DNA of 64,000 bases from the human T2T-CHM13v2.0 reference genome, Homo sapiens, in assembly GCF_009914755.1 (NCBI RefSeq), contig NC_060926.1; one strand, given 5' to 3'. Positions 13,000 through 22,106 of the stretch are shown here, one piece after another (the first letter of the stretch is position 1; the number at the start of each line of letters is the position of its first letter). Position numbers and translations under genes: made by a program. The notes under the pieces were generated by a model. The model was not told the origin of the DNA and made no database searches. It was given only the letters and a program-made list of their open reading frames with translations.

Positions 13000-14158
13000 C
13001 TCAGTCTTTCAGCCTCCATTTTCTCACCTCTCTGCATGGCTGAAGCCCTCCACGGGCTGTTCCCACCTCCCCGACCCCCACAGAAGCTTCTCTATAAAGT
13101 CACCAGCTCCTTTCCAGGTTGTCCAACGCCATGGGCATGTCTCAGTGAATTCAGCTTTCCCTAGGGCTGGGCAGCCACCCTCTGGGAAAACCCCGTGCTT
13201 CCCCAGACACCGCTCTGTACTGCTTTCTCCCTCAGTCCCTACTGCCTGCCACTCCTCCTCTCCATGTGGCCCAGAAATGTCGGGGTTTTCATGGACATGT
13301 TCTGAGACTTCGTCTCTCCTCCTTCTCCCCTTGCTGAGCCCTTAAGTTCCCATGGATTTAAATGCCAGGGTTCTGCTCTCAAATCCCACCTCTGTCGCCC
13401 GTACTTCCCTACAGCCCAGACTCCAGGCACCTGGCATCTCACACGGAGCCCTCAATTCCCACCTGTCCCAAACTCATCCTCCCCTGGGTCTTCCCATCTG
13501 AGCAAATGGCACAACCATCACCAGGTGTTCAGGCCAGACCCCTGTGAGTCCTCCTTGAGTCCACCAGTTCCCCTCCCTGCCGGTCCATCAGCAAGCCCTA
13601 GCTATTCTAGCTCCAAAATACACCCCAAAGCTCTTCTCTGTCTCCACTGCTGCCTCTCAAATCCACATCACATCCTTCCTGTGCACAGAAACCTTCTATG
13701 GCTGCCCAGTATTGTCAGAAGTAAGCCAGCTTTTGGGCAGACTCTGCAGGTCTCCAACTGATGTGTGGAGCCCCGCCTGCCTCTCTGGCTGCATCTGGCC
13801 CTTTCTCCTTTGCCATTTCACCCTGGCATACAGTTTGCCAAACAAGTCAAGGCCTTGCTGGTGCTGTTTCCTCTGCCTAGAACACTCTCCCTGACCCCAC
13901 TCCTCACAGAGCCAGCTCTTCGGTTCCTTCAGACCTTAACTGAAATGCCACCTCCTCCAAGAAGCCTGTCTTGACCACCCCAACTAAAGCAGGCCTCTGC
14001 TATCTTCTATTTCAGCCCCTTGTTTCTTTATGTTCTGCCTGTCTCCCCCATCAGAATGTCAACTCCATGAGAGCAGGAACCGTATACGCCCAGGGTCTAG
14101 TACACAGCCAGGTATACAGTAAGTGTTCAATAAGCATCTGCTGAAGGAGCAGATGAAC
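13000..14158 (+). mobile_element. L2 3' portion
   Basis: L2 3'-end motifs (gaatgtcaactccatgagagcagg; cagtaagtgttcaataagcatctgctgaa). Confidence 0.65.
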
Positions 14159-14292
14159 CAGTCATCATGACTAGAGATTAAGAGGCTCCCAGTAAGTTCT
14201 AAGGGTTAGCCTGAAGGGGAAACTGAGGCCCATCACTTCTGGTTTTCCAGTTCTGCAGGACGGGCTGGGGCCCAGGCCAGAAGGCGCCTCAC

Positions 14293-14439
14293 CTCCCTTT
14301 TCCAGCGTGCCAGCCACTCGTCCCGCTTGCGCTTGCTGATGTAGTAGGGGTCCCCCGCCTGGAAGGTGAGCCTCGGCATGGGCCGCTGACGGAGGCTGGA
14401 CTCCCAGCCCAAGCCACCCCGCAGCCGGCCCCGGGAGCC
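14293..14439 (-). CDS. DNMT3A: DNMT3A exon 6, aa 165-213 ([49 protein letters not shown]), bulk of the ubiquitin-dependent recruitment region
   Basis: Acceptor ctgtctctctgtcctag|GGC, donor GAG|GTGAGG, 147 nt, phase 0-0. Confidence 0.97.
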
Positions 14440-14851
14440 CTAGGACAGAGAGACAGACATTAGGGCATTAGGGTGGGCACTGACGGACCCACCAAGGAGG
14501 CACTCGCCTCAAACACAATGTGGACACTGGCTCCTGGCCAGAGAGGGCACCCCTGGGAGTGCTGGGCAGGCCCCGTGTGGGCTGGAGGAGCGAGGGGCAT
14601 GTGTGGCGGGGGTGGGGGGGCACATGGACACGGCCACAGGCCACGAAGGGAGGCGTCTGGCCTCTGGAGGGGGATGAGCCGGCTGCCTTGTTGGGGGACT
14701 TCCAACCTCCACGCCCACTTCCTCTCCTTCCCACAGAGGGATGTGTAAAGAAGGAGGAGGGGCCCACCCTCCGCCCCCTCACACACACTCGCCACCCGTG
14801 TCCTTCTTCTAGAATCAGGATCCACAGAGCCCCTGGGGGTGGAACACTTGC

Positions 14852-14895
14852 CTCCATTTTCATGGATTCGATGTTGGTCTCCTTCTGTTCTTTGC
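14852..14895 (-). CDS. DNMT3A: DNMT3A exon 5, aa 150-164 (GKEQKETNIESMKME)
   Basis: Acceptor cttccctctccacag|GC, 44 nt, phase 1-0, non-canonical donor GAG|GCAAGT. Confidence 0.96.
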
Positions 14896-16468
14896 CTGTG
14901 GAGAGGGAAGAACAAAGGGACCAGTTCGTTGGTCGGCAGAATTACTGGAGTGGCTCACAGGCCCCACCTTGTGCCTGGGGTCCCTGCCACAGGGGATGGG
15001 GGTCCTCTGGCCGTTTAGCTGTTCATGTGTTAAATATGATGGCCCACCACATGCCAGGCACAGTGCTGACCCTGAGGACCCAGCAGGGCCTAGGGCAGAG
15101 AAAGAACTCGGGCAGGGGCAGGCCTTGAGGCCCAGGCAAGAGGGAACACGAGGAAATTCAGAGCTGGGTTTCTGGCCTGTCAACTCTGTCTCAGGTACAC
15201 AGAAGGGGACTAAAAATACCCCCATTCTGCTGCTCCCAGTCAAGAGACCTCCTTCCCCAAAGGAGGAGCAGGAAGGCAGAGGGGGTGCGGAAGGAGGAGG
15301 GGGTGCAGGAAGGCCTGGGCCAGAGGGCCAGCCTGAGCGGCCTCCCTGGCCCTGCAAGGGAGTGTTTGCAGAGGCCTTCTGGGCATAAGGGCATGTACTG
15401 GGGGGCGGTGGGTACCGGGCCAACTGGAACAAGACCCCGGTGAAGCAACTTCCTCTCTACGAGACTCAGTTTCCTCATCTGGAAAATAAGGATGCTGGAT
15501 GCGATTTCCAAGGTCCGCCTGCAGGTCCAAATATTATGATTCTATTACTAATCTCATTCTCCGTCCCTCCACTCCCTGCCCCATGCTCAGGCCCCTGAGC
15601 TCAGCCTTTAATCTAGAAGACTTGAGTTTGGATTCCAGTGTGACCTCTGTAACCTCTCCTGGCCTGTTTTCCCACTGAATCAAGGTAGATAAATGTTCTA
15701 AAATCATTAGGTTATGGTGAGCATTAAGTGCCTACTGTGGGGCCTGGCATACTGTAGGTGCTCAATACATGTTAGTGTGGTTCTCCTTCCCTAAGGATTC
15801 ATTTCCTCTACTGGGCCCTGATTCCAGGTCCTGGCAGGGAAGTCTCAATTTCCCTATTGAGACCTTGCCCTCTCCCTGTGCTTCTCCAAGCCCCCAGCAT
15901 GAGGGGAGCTGCGCTCCTCCCAGGCATCCCCCTGCACTCCCCACCAGGTCCTCACCACCCTTTCCAGGCACCCCTTCCAGGCCCAGCGCCCCGGAGGCTG
16001 CGGGGCTGGCTGATTCTGCCTCCCATAGCTTCTTGCTGGAGGTGGGGAAGTGAGCCCTCCTTCCACCTGGGCCCCTGAGCTTCTTTGTCGGGAACCGACA
16101 GCGTATCGGGCCTGGGCCCACTGCAGGAAGGTCACTAAGGCTGGCTCATGGTAGCTTGGGGTGGGGGGAGACAAAGAGCCTGAAACGGAAAAAACAGCCC
16201 CGACTTCATCTCCTGGCTGTGAAGCGGAAGCCAGCCACAGTGTTCACGCCGCGGGTCCTCAGCCCGGGAGGCCACTCCCTTCCCTCGTGACAGGGGGGTC
16301 CTGGACTGGTTTTGGGCTGACCCCGGGCGCCCAGGACAGCGCTGTCCTCCGTGGTTCTGTCCCTGGTGACAGCGACTCCCGCTAGCTAGGCCCGGGAGCA
16401 CCAGGGGGAGGGAGGCAGGAGGGCCACCGTGGGTGCGGGCCTGGCGCCGGGCTCAGCCCGCGGGGGCC

Positions 16469-16518
16469 GCGTGGGCGGGGACGGGGCGTCTTGTCGCGGG
16501 CACCTGTGCGCGTGGGCG
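16469..16518 (+). promoter_or_regulatory. Two EGR1-type sites overlapping Sp/KLF GC boxes
   Basis: GCGTGGGCG at 16469-16477 and 16510-16518, each running into GGGCGG. Confidence 0.55.
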
Positions 16519-16747
16519 GGCGCGCACTCGCCAGCGCTTTGTTCGTGACCGGCCTTTTAAGGGCTGTCTCACCCATCTTGTCTGGCTCTGCCTCCCTGTT
16601 TCCTTTCCGTCCTCTCTCCCACCACAGCCAGCTCCCCACTTTTTTCGCGGGGGCCCCCTCCAGCCTGTCCGGGGCCTCCCCGTTCCCAGGCCAGGGCTTC
16701 CCCCTCCTCCCAGACCTCGTTGCTCTGCCCGGTGAGGCCCCGGGCTC

Positions 16748-16761
16748 CCAGCAGGGGGCGC
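16748..16761 (+). promoter_or_regulatory. CTCF consensus motif
   Basis: CCAGCAGGGGGCGC matches CCASYAGRKGGCRS at every position; a weaker copy CGATCAGGTGGCGG follows at about 16769. Confidence 0.7.
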
Positions 16762-17352
16762 CTGCTCGCGATCAGGTGGCGGCCTGGGGGCGGCCTGGCG
16801 GTCCCGGCGGACCCTGACGCGGCGGGGCTCCGGGGCTCGCGGTGGCGCTGGGAACCACTGTGTCAGCCCTGCGGCTAGGGCGGGGAGTGGAGGACCCCCG
16901 GGCTGGCTCTCGGACCTGGACTTGGGGCTTCCGACTGCATTTTCTCCCCAGCCCGCTTTAGAACCTCAAACGTTTCCTACTTGGGACCCTCCATGGCATT
17001 TAATTACTTTTACGGATAATTATTTATTCATTAGAATATTAGAAAATCAGGGTTGAAAGGCTTTGCAGAGATCATTGAGTACTTGTTCAGCACTTAAATT
17101 TTGCAGAAAGCTGAGACCTGGGGGGTGGAGTGACTTAAGGCCGGAGCTGAGATGAGCTTTTCAGGGGTCCTGATGCCCCGGCAAGCTCCCTCTCCGCTGC
17201 ACCACTACTGTTATTTCTCAATGTGACCCCCTTCCTAATTTCCCAGCCCCCCAAGCTCCCCAAAACAGAACGATTTTTCCCTATGCAGTTTCCAACTGGC
17301 TTCTTTCTGGAATTTTCTCCCTGACAGACTCTGCGCATGCCCACTTGAGTGA

Positions 17353-17353
<1 letters not shown>

Positions 17354-17399
<46 letters not shown>
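17354..17399. repeat. (CA)23 microsatellite, (UG)n in the pre-mRNA
   Basis: Direct read. Confidence 0.95.
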
Positions 17400-17404
<5 letters not shown>

Positions 17405-17905
17405 ACACACGCTTTCCAGCCTGGCCGGGCCGCCTCGGAATGCGGCACTTGTCGTGAGTCAGGGAGGGTCAGCTGCTCTCTCAGTACGGCCTATGCAGCC
17501 CAACTGCTCCTGGCCCAGGCCCAGGGTCACCGCCAGGGCCAGGTGGTTGTGACCTTCCAGTGTGGCCCTGACAGGCCCGAACATGACCCTAGTGCATCTC
17601 AGGACTTGGGGGCAGGGGAGGCCAGGGTGCTTCTAACACTCGCCTTCGAGTCTGAGCTATACTCAGCCAGAGGCCACCCAAGTTCTCTTTAAAATGAACT
17701 CAAATCTCCATGACCAGGCTGTAGCCAGGTTTACCTCAGAGGGCAGTCACTGGCCTGAAAAGGGGCCCTATGCTCAGAGTAGAGAGGGGTTTTGTGCTGA
17801 CCCTAATCCGGTCTCTCACCAGTTGCATAATCTTGGGTAAGTAATTTAACCTTTCTGAAGCTTCAGTCTCCCCATCTGAAAAATGAGGATAATAAGAGTC
17901 TTCCA

Positions 17906-18220
<315 letters not shown>

Positions 18221-18244
18221 TCACACATGGGGCATAATACACAG

Positions 18245-18400
18245 CAGAGCTTCTGAAACTTTCATATACATGGGAAGCATGAGGCCCTCTTTAAAATGCA
18301 GATTCTGATCCAGCAGGTCTTCAGTGGAGCCTGGAATTCTGCATTTCTAAATTCCTGGGTGCTGCCAACACTGCTGGTCTATGGACCACTGTGAGTAGCG
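18245..18400. mobile_element. MER5-type hAT/Charlie MITE
   Basis: aaaatgcagattctg..tggagcctggaattctgcatttctaa..ggaccact. Confidence 0.6.
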
Positions 18401-19007
18401 AGGAGAGAGAATGCCCAATACAGTCAATACTCAATAAGGGAAAGCCACATCGCCACTGCCACCTGAATCATCATCATTATGGCATTAATGCTGGCGGGGG
18501 CAGGAACAGACCCAAGACAAGCACAGGCCTGTCGGGTGTTGGCTCCTGTCCCTATCACTCATCTCATCATCTCCCGTCTTCCTGATTCTTTCTCCTGGCT
18601 GTACTTTCAGCACATGCTCAGGCTACAAGAAACGCTGCCTTAAAAAGTCTGTTTTTGCTGTACAGGAGCTAATGAAAGGGGTTCCAGGAGAGCATCCCCT
18701 GAAAAGAGACCTGGAATAAGGGGAACTGAAAGGAGACCACGGCCGAGCCACATCCTCTCCGGGGCCTTAGTCTCCTTCCTCATCTGAATCAACCAGCTGA
18801 GCATGTGTTCTATGTCAGCTGACTGCTGGAACCGTGACCGAGCCTCCACACCCTGATTAAGCCACTGTCCGTTGCATATTGGCAGAGCCTAGGCCACTGC
18901 CCACCCCGCGAGGTAACATCTCACCAATTTCAGCTTCCAGGCAGTGCAGTGGCCTTCAGGGATCCTACCAGCTCTGATCCCTGCCAGAATCTATACTTCC
19001 TGGATAG

Positions 19008-19352
<345 letters not shown>

Positions 19353-20827
19353 TCAAGGCCAAATTTTGGAGGTCAAGGAGACTTAAAGAGTTTTTGCCCA
19401 CCACACTCAGCACTAAGATTCTAAGGAAGATCCACCTGTCTGAAAGTCCCAGACCCAGGAATCATCCTTGACAGCATCTCTCCCTCACCTCTCATGTTCC
19501 TGGCATTTGTCCCCTCCCTTCATCTCTGCTGCCATCCTGCTCATCAGCCCCTCCGATGTCATCCTGCTTCCCAGCTCCTCCATTCCATCCCAGGATCCAG
19601 ATGACATGAGCTTTTCAAATTGCAAAGCTGATTACATCACACACACTGCCCACTCCCCGCCTCCCCACCCCCCGCCTCCCCGCCCCCCCACCCCCCACCC
19701 CGGCAGCCACCTTTGAAGGCCTGGCCTGTCTGCCCCAGCACTTTCCACACCCTTCTCCTTTGCTCTCTGCACTCTAGCCTTGTGACATCTATCAGTTCCC
19801 TGGGTGCCCTGCTCCCTCCCACCTGGGAGCCTTCTTCCCTGTTCTCACTCTCTCCCTCTACCCCTCACCCAGTGGACTCCCTTCGCCCTTCAGCTCGCGC
19901 TGGACAGCCCAGGCCAACTCAGGTTCTTCGTTGCAGTTCCCCTGGACATGTTTCACTTCCCTTAGAGCGCTTATCTCCATGTGTAATCTCATCTTTTTAA
20001 GGGTGGATTTCTCATTAATGTCTGTCTCTCCAGCTGACTGTGAGGTCCTTGAGGGCAAGAAGCAGGTTTTTGTTCATAATAGTTTCCCCAGTCCCTGGTA
20101 TGGATCCTAGCACACCCTGAATGGGTGTTTTAAGAAACACCTGTTGACTGATCGATGCAGGAGCCCTTGAGAACAGCTAGAAATGGAAGTAGGGAAATCC
20201 CAAAGTGAAAACAAACCCTCAAGGCCAGAGAACAGCTTTGGGGCTATGGCTCCATGCTTCAGGGCAGGAAGGAATGCCGTGACCCTGGGTAGCAGCTCGG
20301 CAGGAGTCATGGTGGGGTCCTGGGAAGCGAAGTCAACTGCAGTCAGCCCATGGGAAGCACCACATTTGGAAGGGCAGGGCTGATGGGTTCTCTCACACAC
20401 CTGGCATTGTTAATGGGAAGGATGGTGTCTTCTCCCTTTCCTCATCTGTTTCACTCCCCTCAGGCCCTTCCCACTCTCGGGAAGTATCAGAATATGTGCA
20501 AGAGGCCTAGACAATTCAGGACCCGTCTCCGCACCAAGTCCCATTCCAGGACAGCGGAAAATAGTAGAAAGGCACAAGACCAGGACTGAATGAGCCCTGG
20601 ATCTGCCACTTAAGGTTGGGGCTCCATGAGCAAGTCACATCATTGTTTTAAGCCTCAATATTTTTCTCCTGAAATGAGGATAATCATATCTCTTGAATAA
20701 GATTGTTAGAGGAGTAAATAAAACAACTAATACAGATTCCCTCTGTAGTGTTCTGCACATAGTGGGAGCATCATACATATTTGTCGAATAATAAATGAAT
20801 AAAAGCTTCTTAATAAGTTTGGAAATT

Positions 20828-20833
20828 TGTATT
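20828..20833 (-). terminator. Candidate variant polyadenylation signal (AATACA) for the intron-4-terminating isoform
   Basis: Plus-strand tgtatt = AATACA on the sense strand, followed by U-rich TTTTATTCATTTATTATT at about 20787-20804; I found no canonical AATAAA between the stop codon and this site. Confidence 0.5.
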
Positions 20834-21479
20834 CTGGAAATGTTCTCTATCCTGCATGAACATTAGGTTGGATCCATGCAAAATAAGTTACGCCAATTAA
20901 TCAATTTACTCATTTCATCATACACGCTTGGAAGGAAGACTTTTTGAAATTAAAATGCACATATGCAAAACAACCTGGCAGGGCCCTGGGAGGATCAAAT
21001 GTGATAATGTATGAGAAAGCGCTTTGTAAACTGTGAAGCCCTGTACAAATGCTAGTTGTCCTCATTACTAACATGTTTACAGCTCGGTTGGCCCTGAAAT
21101 TGCTGGCTTAACCTGAAAGAGAAAAGTGGGCAACTTTCCAGGCTTCCAGGGTTAGGCCAAAAAGTCCCCAGATGAAGAGGCCTGGGCTGGGCAGTACACA
21201 GAATACAATCACCCAGCCCTCTCCCCACGCCACTGTCACAACCAAATTTCCAGTTGAGTCAGCCCAACTAGGGTGGGCTCAGGACCTCTGCACTCAGGGA
21301 GGCAAACAGGGTATCTGCTGCCCTTGAGTGCCCAGGCCAGGGGCTACAAATACAGCAACCCCCAGGAACTGCATGGCACGTGGGAGAGTAAGCAGGCCAG
21401 GTAGAGCTGCAGAAAACTAAGGCCCACAACCAGCCACAGAAGGCGATGGAGGGACCGCCATTATCCCAGTCTAGCAATC

Positions 21480-21700
21480 GTTGGCGTTATGAAAGCCCGC
21501 TGTTGCCAGATCTAGCTTTTTTTTTTTTCATGAGAAGCCAAAACTCCAGATTTTTATGTGAAATTTTTTGATTTTTAAATACTGGCAACTAATTTTTTAA
21601 ATGTTTAAAACACTCTATGGGCCAAATAAAACATATGCGCAGGCTGCATCCAGCCAGTAGCCTCCAGGCCATAGCCTTGGCAAGCAGACCTTTAGCCACG
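21480..21700 (-). mobile_element. MER102-like hAT element
   Basis: tgttgccagatct..gagaagcc..ccagatttttatgtgaaat..tttttaaatactggcaactaatt..gggccaaataaaaca resembles the reverse MER102 consensus as I recall it. Confidence 0.6.
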
Positions 21701-21749
21701 ACCCAGACCATCCTTCCTGGGACCTGCTGGAGAGCCAAGTCCCTGACTC

Positions 21750-22106
<357 letters not shown>

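What the first reader, a model, noticed from the sequence alone, without database searches (positions are those of the whole stretch)
16567..16930. Putative internal first exon in the intron-4 CpG island giving an in-frame intermediate DNMT3A isoform ([16 protein letters not shown]...)
Seen: the sense strand reads ...GACAAG ATG G|GTGAGA, with ATG at 16576-16574 and GT at 16572-16571. The ATG has a strong Kozak context (A at -3, G at +4). No other sense ATG occurs in the 360 nt upstream (next at 16940). The single G before the donor is phase 1, exactly what exon 5 (|GC AAA GAA) needs, and it rebuilds Gly150. The upstream sequence is CpG island with GC boxes and a CTCF motif. Backup starts exist in exon 5 (M161; M163 in AAAATGG). 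Established: DNMT3A1 (912 aa) has the exon-6 H2AK119ub-recruitment region and DNMT3A2 lacks it. Inference: a further promoter would make a ~764-aa catalytically complete enzyme that keeps this region but loses residues 1-149, including the exon-3 basic patch. Antibodies or primers against exons 2-4 would miss it. I cannot tell whether it is already annotated.
Basis: partly seen in the sequence, partly recalled or inferred. Interest (0 to 1): 0.85.

Follow-up and report, generated by a model that had tools for sequence, protein, structure and literature searches.

The report
Annotated alternative DNMT3A exon, intron 4

Summary
On the minus strand the sequence reads GACAAG ATG G|GTGAGA: ATG at 16576-16574, a single G at 16573, GT at 16572-16571. 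It lies in a CpG island (16284-16913: GC 0.73, CpG o/e 0.67). Spliced to exon 5 (14895), the reading frame continues as [16 protein letters not shown]... and gives 764 aa.

The hub's RefSeq table already lists an exon at 16573-16744.

The motif arrangement on its own is what chance gives:
- Intron 4 holds 4 in-frame ATG + phase-1 GTRAG sites; shuffles give 5.3.
- Neither the GC boxes nor the ATG-free stretch is significant.

The predicted protein would keep exon 6, which encodes the H2AK119ub-recruitment region (UDR, residues 164-219). It would lose residues 1-149.

I could not test transcription, the 16573->14895 junction, translation or conservation. A mouse CAGE lead turned out to be a different site, next to exon 6. 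No paper found describes a 764-aa DNMT3A; recent papers speak of two main isoforms.

Verdict: a correct reading of an already annotated alternative exon. The protein isoform is plausible but undemonstrated.

The parts
16573..16744 (-). Alternative DNMT3A exon ('exon A', 172 nt): 168 nt of G-rich leader, then ATG, then one G.
   Evidence: The boundaries come from the hub's RefSeq table. Sequence and composition: (G 80, C 38, A 42, T 12). The 168-nt leader folds at -71 kcal/mol. The stretch is unique in the genome (1 match, itself).
16574..16576 (-). Candidate start codon, context GACAAGATGG (after splicing, CAAGATGGGC).
   Evidence: It is the only ATG in the exon.
16567..16572 (-). 5' splice donor TGG|GTGAGA.
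   Evidence: With a rough PWM (frequencies recalled) it scores 3.0 and ranks 10th of 345 GT sites in intron 4. It is the best GT between 16744 and 16300. The constitutive donors in the window score 6.1-6.8.
16284..16913 (.). Intragenic CpG island (flagged roughly 16200-16950). RefSeq lists this span as a 'silencer'.
   Evidence: GC 0.73, CpG o/e 0.67, 57 CpG; the window as a whole has o/e 0.27. The silencer label comes from the hub table.
16748..16761 (+). CTCF core motif CCAGCAGGGGGCGC, 4 nt upstream of the annotated 5' end of the exon.
   Evidence: one exact match to CCASYAGRKGGCRS in 16400-17000. The consensus is recalled; occupancy was not tested.
15416..15518 (-). Second annotated alternative exon ('exon B', 103 nt). 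If it sits between exon A and exon 5, the ATG opens only a 15-codon uORF.
   Evidence: Hub table: A-B-E5 reads MGGPWKSHPASLFSR*, and the next in-frame starts are M161 and M163. Its donor CCG|GTACCC is weak (score -2.2). Placed after exon 4 it gives a stop at codon 164.
14852..14895 (-). Exon 5 (44 nt, codons 150-164), the proposed acceptor exon. Its own donor is GC (GAG|GCAAGT).
14293..14439 (-). Exon 6 (codons 165-213). It encodes the core of the ubiquitin-dependent recruitment region, which the isoform would keep.
   Evidence: PF22855 DNM3A_N, E = 1.8e-30, profile positions 161-209; literature mapping to residues 164-219 and 170-210.

Best explanation
The site is the 3' end of an alternative 5' exon of DNMT3A that RefSeq already annotates (window 16573-16744, T2T chr2:25,312,573-25,312,744, minus strand). 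The exon sits in the upstream half of an intragenic CpG island in intron 4.

The most likely mechanism has four steps:
1. Dispersed, TATA-less initiation in the island gives a 168-nt, G-rich, strongly folded leader. This step is inferred.
2. The only ATG of the exon lies 4 nt before the donor TGG|GTGAGA. This is shown.
3. Splicing to exon 5 restores codon 150 (G|GC) and the DNMT3A frame. The frame is shown; the junction is inferred.
4. Translation from this ATG would give a 764-aa protein, Met followed by residues 150-912. This is inferred.

That protein would lack residues 1-149, including the exon-3 basic patch. It would keep the UDR and, downstream of the window, the PWWP, ADD and methyltransferase domains.

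The transcript is probably minor or tissue-restricted.
For: - The hub's RefSeq table lists an exon at 16573-16744.
- the ATG, the G and the GT are at the stated places. The join to 14895 is in frame and gives 764 aa. The Kozak context has A at -3 and G at +4, and this holds after splicing.
- the CpG island is genuine (GC 0.73, o/e 0.67).
- the donor is the best GT within about 450 nt downstream of the annotated 5' end.
- the 5' boundary is a poor acceptor (GAG|, 50% pyrimidines in the last 20 nt, against 75-80% for exons 5 and 6). As a cassette after exon 4 the exon would shift the frame. Both points favour a first exon.
- exon 6 encodes the UDR.
- the island is single-copy.
Against: - The motif arrangement is no more than chance (4 observed against 5.3 expected; 1 against 0.88 with a strong Kozak context).
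- GC boxes and the ATG desert are not significant.
- The donor is much weaker than the constitutive ones (3.0 against 6.1-6.8).
- The leader is very stable (-71 kcal/mol), which would hinder scanning.
- RefSeq labels the island a silencer (hub table).
- I cannot tell which of the 24 RefSeq transcripts carries the exon, whether it is a curated or a predicted model, or what CDS it is given.
- The curated NM_001320893 is not this transcript. In PMC13064416 Table 1A the variant at hg19 25,457,287 is c.2144 in exon 18. With the recalled position of R882, this means a 152-codon offset and 18 exons. This isoform would need a 148-codon offset and 20 exons.
- Of the 120 DNMT3A-like cluster representatives listed, none starts at this ATG. 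Clustering at 90% identity would hide such isoforms, so this is weak.
- No protein in the 5.8-billion-sequence database matches the exon's upstream frame (50 candidates, none scored).
- Papers state five protein-coding transcripts (PMC6293073, 2018) or two main isoforms (PMC11624362, 2024). None is this one.
Confidence: 0.6

Rival explanations
1. The exon is transcribed, but its transcripts are mostly non-productive. They might pass through the second alternative exon (15416-15518), so that the ATG opens only a 15-codon uORF. Or they might be rare by-products of an unmethylated or Polycomb-marked intragenic CpG island whose main role is regulatory (silencer or CTCF site). No stable 764-aa protein accumulates.
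For: -: A-B-E5 gives MGGPWKSHPASLFSR*.
- The hub table lists exon B, a silencer over 16284-16913 and an enhancer at 15634-16225.
- a CTCF core motif lies 4 nt from the exon's 5' end.
- the donor is weak and the leader is very stable.
- the literature recognises no such isoform.
- After Met removal the N-terminus would be Gly. Recalled work on Gly/N-degrons suggests this could be destabilising; not tested.
Against: - Exon B's own donor is very weak (-2.2), so A-B-E5 is not obviously the favoured path.
- The direct A-E5 join is in frame with a strong Kozak context.
- The silencer and enhancer labels come from reporter screens and do not exclude promoter activity.
Confidence: 0.27
2. The annotated exon is not a first exon. 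It is an internal cassette ('poison') exon spliced between exon 4 and exon 5, and the ATG is irrelevant.
For: -: the exon's 5' end is preceded by AG (CTGGGAG|CCC).
- inclusion after exon 4 shifts the frame, as poison exons do.
- The hub table does not say where the exon lies within its transcript.
Against: -: G at -3 and only 50% pyrimidines make it a poor acceptor.
- the exon lies in a CpG island, a typical site of initiation.
- An AG before an arbitrary 5' end is expected 1 time in 16.
Confidence: 0.1
3. The exon model is an annotation artefact, for example a single spurious cDNA or read alignment, and the ATG-G|GT arrangement is coincidence.
For: -: such arrangements arise by chance about 5 times in this intron.
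- The hub table warns that predicted models can be wrong.
Against: A blind reading of the sequence and the annotation chose the same donor nucleotide, in a CpG island, out of 345 GT sites.
Confidence: 0.03

Closest known systems
DNMT3A2, the short DNMT3A isoform made from an intronic alternative promoter
   Same: It follows the same logic. An intragenic promoter with its own first exon gives an N-terminally shortened, catalytically complete enzyme from the same gene (PMC11624362 and PMC12789621, passages).
   Different: The DNMT3A2 promoter lies downstream of exon 6, outside this window, so DNMT3A2 lacks the UDR: 219 residues are missing in mouse. The exon studied here lies upstream of exons 5 and 6, so its product would keep the UDR. 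DNMT3A2 is shown experimentally; this isoform is not.
DNMT3A1, the full-length 912-aa enzyme (NM_022552)
   Same: Identical from residue 150 onward. Exons 5 and 6 in the window are shared.
   Different: The new isoform lacks residues 1-149, encoded by exons 2-4. These include [14 protein letters not shown] in exon 3 and part of the N-terminal region reported to bind free DNA (Suetake 2011, as cited in PMC11624362).
Cryptic intragenic Dnmt3a TSS in mouse Eu-TCL1 leukaemia B cells (PMC9359700)
   Same: An intragenic, polysome-associated TSS upstream of exon 6 of the same gene. The paper describes it as lying in 'the fourth intron' and causing the 'loss of three exons' (passages).
   Different: It is not the same site. 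The paper's primers (supplement 4) map to human exon 6 (14322-14343, 3 mismatches) and to the last 20 nt of intron 5 (14443-14462, 4 mismatches). That is about 2.1 kb downstream of exon A. The codon just upstream of exon 6 is an in-frame TAG, so that transcript cannot code upstream of exon 6.
RefSeq NM_001320893 (isoform d, 760 aa)
   Same: It is another curated N-terminally altered DNMT3A transcript of similar length.
   Different: The 152-codon offset and 18 exons (PMC13064416 Table 1A, combined with the recalled hg19 position of R882) imply a first exon spliced to exon 7. That makes it DNMT3A2-like, without exons 5 and 6.

Membership tests
Alternative first exon driven by a CpG-island promoter | CpG island criteria at the site (GC >= 0.55, CpG o/e >= 0.6, length > 200 bp) | tested here: met
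   16284-16913 has GC 0.73, o/e 0.67 and 57 CpG. Six of the seven 200-bp windows that start between 16200 and 16800 pass.
Alternative first exon driven by a CpG-island promoter | Capped 5' ends (CAGE, RAMPAGE or 5' RACE) on the sense strand | not testable with these tools
   No expression data are held. The only support is the annotated 5' end at 16744 in the hub table. It has no YR initiator (G at -1, C at +1).
Alternative first exon driven by a CpG-island promoter | A usable 5' splice donor at the exon end | tested here: met
   TGG|GTGAGA is the best GT between 16744 and 16300 and ranks 10th of 345 in the intron. It is weaker than the constitutive donors. The PWM frequencies are recalled.
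Alternative first exon driven by a CpG-island promoter | The exon is first in its transcript, with no upstream exon joined to it | tested here: inconclusive
   poor acceptor context (GAG|, 50% pyrimidines), and the frame shifts if the exon is placed after exon 4. The hub table does not give the exon's rank.
Alternative first exon driven by a CpG-island promoter | An observed splice junction to exon 5 | not testable with these tools
   No RNA-seq data. A proxy search for proteins carrying the exon's upstream frame found nothing, which is weak evidence.
Protein-coding N-terminal isoform of DNMT3A | An in-frame ATG with an open frame into the shared exons | tested here: met
   phase 1 matches and the frame is open through exons 5 and 6. 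The total is 764 aa by arithmetic from the 912-aa protein.
Protein-coding N-terminal isoform of DNMT3A | Retains the ubiquitin-dependent recruitment region | tested here: met
   exon 6 matches PF22855 positions 161-209; the UDR maps to 164-219, with contacts at 170-210.
Protein-coding N-terminal isoform of DNMT3A | Evidence of translation or of the protein (Ribo-seq, N-terminal peptide, western band) | not testable with these tools
   None is available. Searches found no paper describing such a protein.
Protein-coding N-terminal isoform of DNMT3A | Conservation of the ATGG|GT in other mammals | not testable with these tools
   No other mammalian genome is held. None of the 120 listed cluster representatives starts at this ATG, but clustering at 90% identity hides isoforms. 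One bird cluster of 749 aa (P0047, 96 member sequences) starts at the M163 equivalent; missing GC-rich 5' exons in bird assemblies could explain that.

The most novel reading that the evidence does not exclude
Human cells may make a third catalytically complete DNMT3A isoform of 764 aa (Met plus residues 150-912) from the intron-4 CpG-island promoter.

- It would keep the H2AK119ub-reading UDR, so it would still be drawn to PRC1-marked CpG islands. It would lack residues 1-149.
- It would be invisible to reagents raised against exons 2-4.
- It would survive truncating mutations or engineered deletions confined to exons 2-4. Some 'DNMT3A1-specific' losses would then be incomplete.

No paper in the searched library describes it.
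Probability: 0.15. Interest if true: 0.6.

Novelty: already known. Interest (0 to 1): 0.3.

Why it matters
DNMT3A1 and DNMT3A2 differ in the N-terminal region that carries the UDR. That region accounts for DNMT3A1's recruitment to H2AK119ub chromatin and for its postnatal essentiality (PMC11266573 and PMC11624362, passages).

An isoform that begins at residue 150 would separate the UDR from the first 149 residues in a natural protein. It would also complicate the reading of isoform-specific knockouts, N-terminal antibodies and early truncating variants.

As it stands, the exon is already in RefSeq and its use is undocumented. The practical value is a pointer to check existing CAGE, junction and Ribo-seq data.

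Tried and rejected
1. Mouse CAGE lead. [quoted passage not shown] I mapped its primers (supplement 4) onto the window. They fall in exon 6 and in the last 20 nt of intron 5, so this is a different site and I rejected it as an orthologue.

2. NM_001320893 as the carrier of the exon. Rejected on exon count and codon offset (plus the recalled position of R882).

3. Protein database search with exon 6 (294 hits among 310 candidates, 120 listed).
- Eight of the 120 have the GSRGR motif within their first 80 residues. None starts at the exon-A ATG.
- The second script printed 23 rows and then stopped on an error at P0038. I did not repeat it.

4. Search with the exon's upstream frame: 50 candidates, none scored.

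5. Chicken Dnmt3a3 (PMC7052267) is an internal-deletion variant and is unrelated.

6. PMC11006857, PMC4965872 and PMC11235174 held nothing relevant. The term matches were superscripts, reference-list entries or unrelated mentions of DNMT3A.

7. PMC12789621 has no mention of residual or truncated products.

8. PMC9295050 (Gu et al. 2022) is not held, so I could not check how the Dnmt3a1 knockout was built.

9. Rfam found no family in 14000-18000.

10. If the intron is retained, the ATG opens only a 64-aa ORF.

12. N-myristoylation of Gly2 was considered and rejected. Lys at position 3 and Lys at position 6 do not fit the recalled PROSITE pattern. This was not tested with a tool.

Full report
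**What is there**

Read on the minus strand, window 16580-16567 is CAAG ATG G|GTGAGA. The ATG is at 16576-16574, the single G at 16573 and the GT at 16572-16571, with A at -3 and G at +4.

A script confirmed that the sense ATGs between 17300 and 16400 are at 17075, 17031, 16999, 16994, 16940 and 16576 only.

Translating the annotated coding parts reproduces the DNMT3A N-terminus. It also shows that exon 5 (14852-14895) starts in phase 1 at codon 150 and that exon 6 (14293-14439) starts in phase 0 at codon 165.

Joining 16573 to 14895 reads [22 protein letters not shown]... with no stop. Met plus residues 150-912 makes 764 aa.

**Annotation**

The hub's RefSeq table lists, among 'exons of other transcripts', an exon at 16573-16744.

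The ATG is nt 169-171 of this 172-nt exon and is the exon's only ATG. So the exon is already annotated.

The table does not say which of the 24 transcripts carries the exon, whether the model is curated or predicted, or where the exon ranks in it.

It is not the curated NM_001320893. Table 1A of PMC13064416 (passage) gives hg19 chr2:25,457,287 as c.2144 in exon 18 of that transcript. With the recalled position of R882H (c.2645 at 25,457,242, last exon = exon 23 of NM_022552), this means an offset of 152 codons and 18 exons. That fits a first exon spliced to exon 7. The isoform discussed here would have an offset of 148 codons and 20 exons.

**Is the sequence pattern more than chance?**

No. 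The tests were these.
- In intron 4 (14896-21802, sense strand), 4 ATGs are followed in frame, without a stop, by a phase-1 GTRAG donor. 200 block shuffles give a mean of 5.3 (sd 3.0). With R at -3 and G at +4 there is 1 against 0.88.
- The four GGGCGG boxes in 16400-17000 compare with 2.4 expected; 107 of 500 shuffles reach four.
- The ATG-free 361 nt has P(0) = 0.10 in 2000 shuffles.
- The open frame upstream of the ATG means nothing. All three frames of the exon are open, because it has only 12 T in 172 nt.

Three things do stand out.
- Context. The CpG island is genuine: 16284-16913 has GC 0.73 and o/e 0.67, against 0.27 for the window.
- Donor position. The donor is the best GT in the roughly 450 nt downstream of the annotated 5' end. 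It ranks 10th of 345 in the intron, though it scores 3.0 against 6.1-6.8 for the constitutive donors (PWM frequencies recalled).
- Agreement with the annotation.

One exact CTCF core match, CCAGCAGGGGGCGC, lies at 16748-16761 on the + strand, 4 nt from the exon's 5' end (consensus recalled, occupancy unknown).

The island is single-copy in the genome. It holds no Rfam family.

**First exon or internal exon?**

The 5' boundary is preceded by AG, but with G at -3 and only 50% pyrimidines in the last 20 nt. Exons 5 and 6 have 80% and 75%. If the exon were placed after exon 4, its 172 nt would shift the frame.

Together with the CpG island, this favours a first exon. I cannot prove it from the table.

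**Alternative paths**

RefSeq also lists an exon at 15416-15518 (103 nt).
- In A-B-exon 5 the ATG opens a 15-codon uORF (MGGPWKSHPASLFSR*). The DNMT3A frame would then start at M161 or M163, giving 752 or 750 aa.
- Placed after exon 4, exon B gives a stop at codon 164.
- Its donor is weak (-2.2).
- If the intron after exon A is retained, the ATG opens only 64 codons.
- The 168-nt leader folds at -71 kcal/mol, which argues for modest translation at best.

**What the protein would be**

Exon 6 matches Pfam PF22855 (DNM3A_N) positions 161-209 with E = 1.8e-30.

PMC11624362 (passages) maps the minimal UDR to residues 164-219. It states that there are two main isoforms. PMC11266573 (passages) finds residues 170-210 contacting the H2AK119ub1 nucleosome.

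It would lose exons 2-4, including [14 protein letters not shown] in exon 3.

PMC11624362 also reports that deletions within 142-192 abolish the interaction and that the UDR fragment alone binds more weakly. Full affinity is therefore not guaranteed.

**Evidence for use**

I found none that bears directly.
- PMC6293073 (2018; passages) lists five protein-coding transcripts. None is this one.
- PMC9359700 describes a polysome-enriched cryptic TSS 'within the fourth intron' of mouse Dnmt3a (passages). Its primers (supplement 4, read whole) map to human exon 6 (3 mismatches) and to 14443-14462, the last 20 nt of intron 5 (4 mismatches). That is a different site, about 2.1 kb downstream of exon A.
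- A database search with exon 6 returned 294 hits among 310 candidates, of which 120 were listed. None of the 120 representatives starts at this ATG (the script stopped on an error after 23 rows). Clustering at 90% identity would absorb such an isoform, so this is weak evidence.
- A bird cluster of 749 aa (P0047, 96 member sequences) starts at the M163 equivalent. That may reflect missing GC-rich 5' exons rather than an internal promoter.
- A search with the exon's upstream frame found nothing (50 candidates, none scored).
- Eight literature searches found no description of a 764-aa or intermediate DNMT3A isoform. In one search, none of the five listed papers contains DNMT3A at all.
- Conservation could not be tested, because no other mammalian genome is held.

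**Verdict**

The mechanistic inference is coherent and consistent with the frame and domain map: an intragenic CpG-island promoter, a start codon split from codon 150 by the intron, and a 764-aa enzyme that keeps the UDR.

Transcription, the direct junction, translation and conservation all remain unshown, and the motif evidence offered is at chance level.

I rate the exon itself as already known. A functional third isoform is a minority possibility, about 0.15, which existing public CAGE, junction and Ribo-seq data could settle quickly.

Noticed in passing
window 14846-14852 (minus strand): By the RefSeq coordinates, exon 5 of DNMT3A (44 nt) ends GAG|GCAAGT. It therefore uses a GC-AG intron rather than GT-AG. 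From recall, GC donors are rare and often go with alternative splicing.
   Followed up: partly
window 14443-14462 and 14322-14343: The primers for the mouse 'intragenic Dnmt3a' cryptic TSS (Eu-TCL1 leukaemia, PMC9359700 supplement 4) map to the last 20 nt of intron 5 and to exon 6. A separate intragenic start site therefore seems to lie just upstream of exon 6 in mouse. The codon before exon 6 is an in-frame TAG, so the first usable Met there would be M185.
   Followed up: partly
window about 14500-14530 (minus strand, intron 5): A macaque protein model (P0027, 957 aa, 'hypothetical protein EGK_05123') replaces exon 5 with ...ASVHIVFE. This appears to be the translation of a stretch of human intron 5 (CCAGTGTCCACATTGTGTTTGAG|GCGAGT), again with a GC after the GAG. 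I judged this by eye. It is probably a mis-modelled exon.
   Followed up: no
window 15416-15518 (minus strand): The second annotated alternative exon (103 nt) gives a stop at codon 164 when placed after exon 4. Its donor is very weak, CCG|GTACCC. It looks like a poison exon or non-productive exon.
   Followed up: partly
window 16573-16579 (minus strand): The start-codon context AAGATGG also matches the core of the YY1 motif (recalled as AAGATGGCGGC), but the 3' half does not match. Probably coincidence.
   Followed up: no
P0047: A cluster of 96 bird DNMT3A sequences of 749 aa begins MEGSRGRL, the equivalent of human M163. This may reflect missing GC-rich 5' exons in bird assemblies, or a real internal start.
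   Followed up: no
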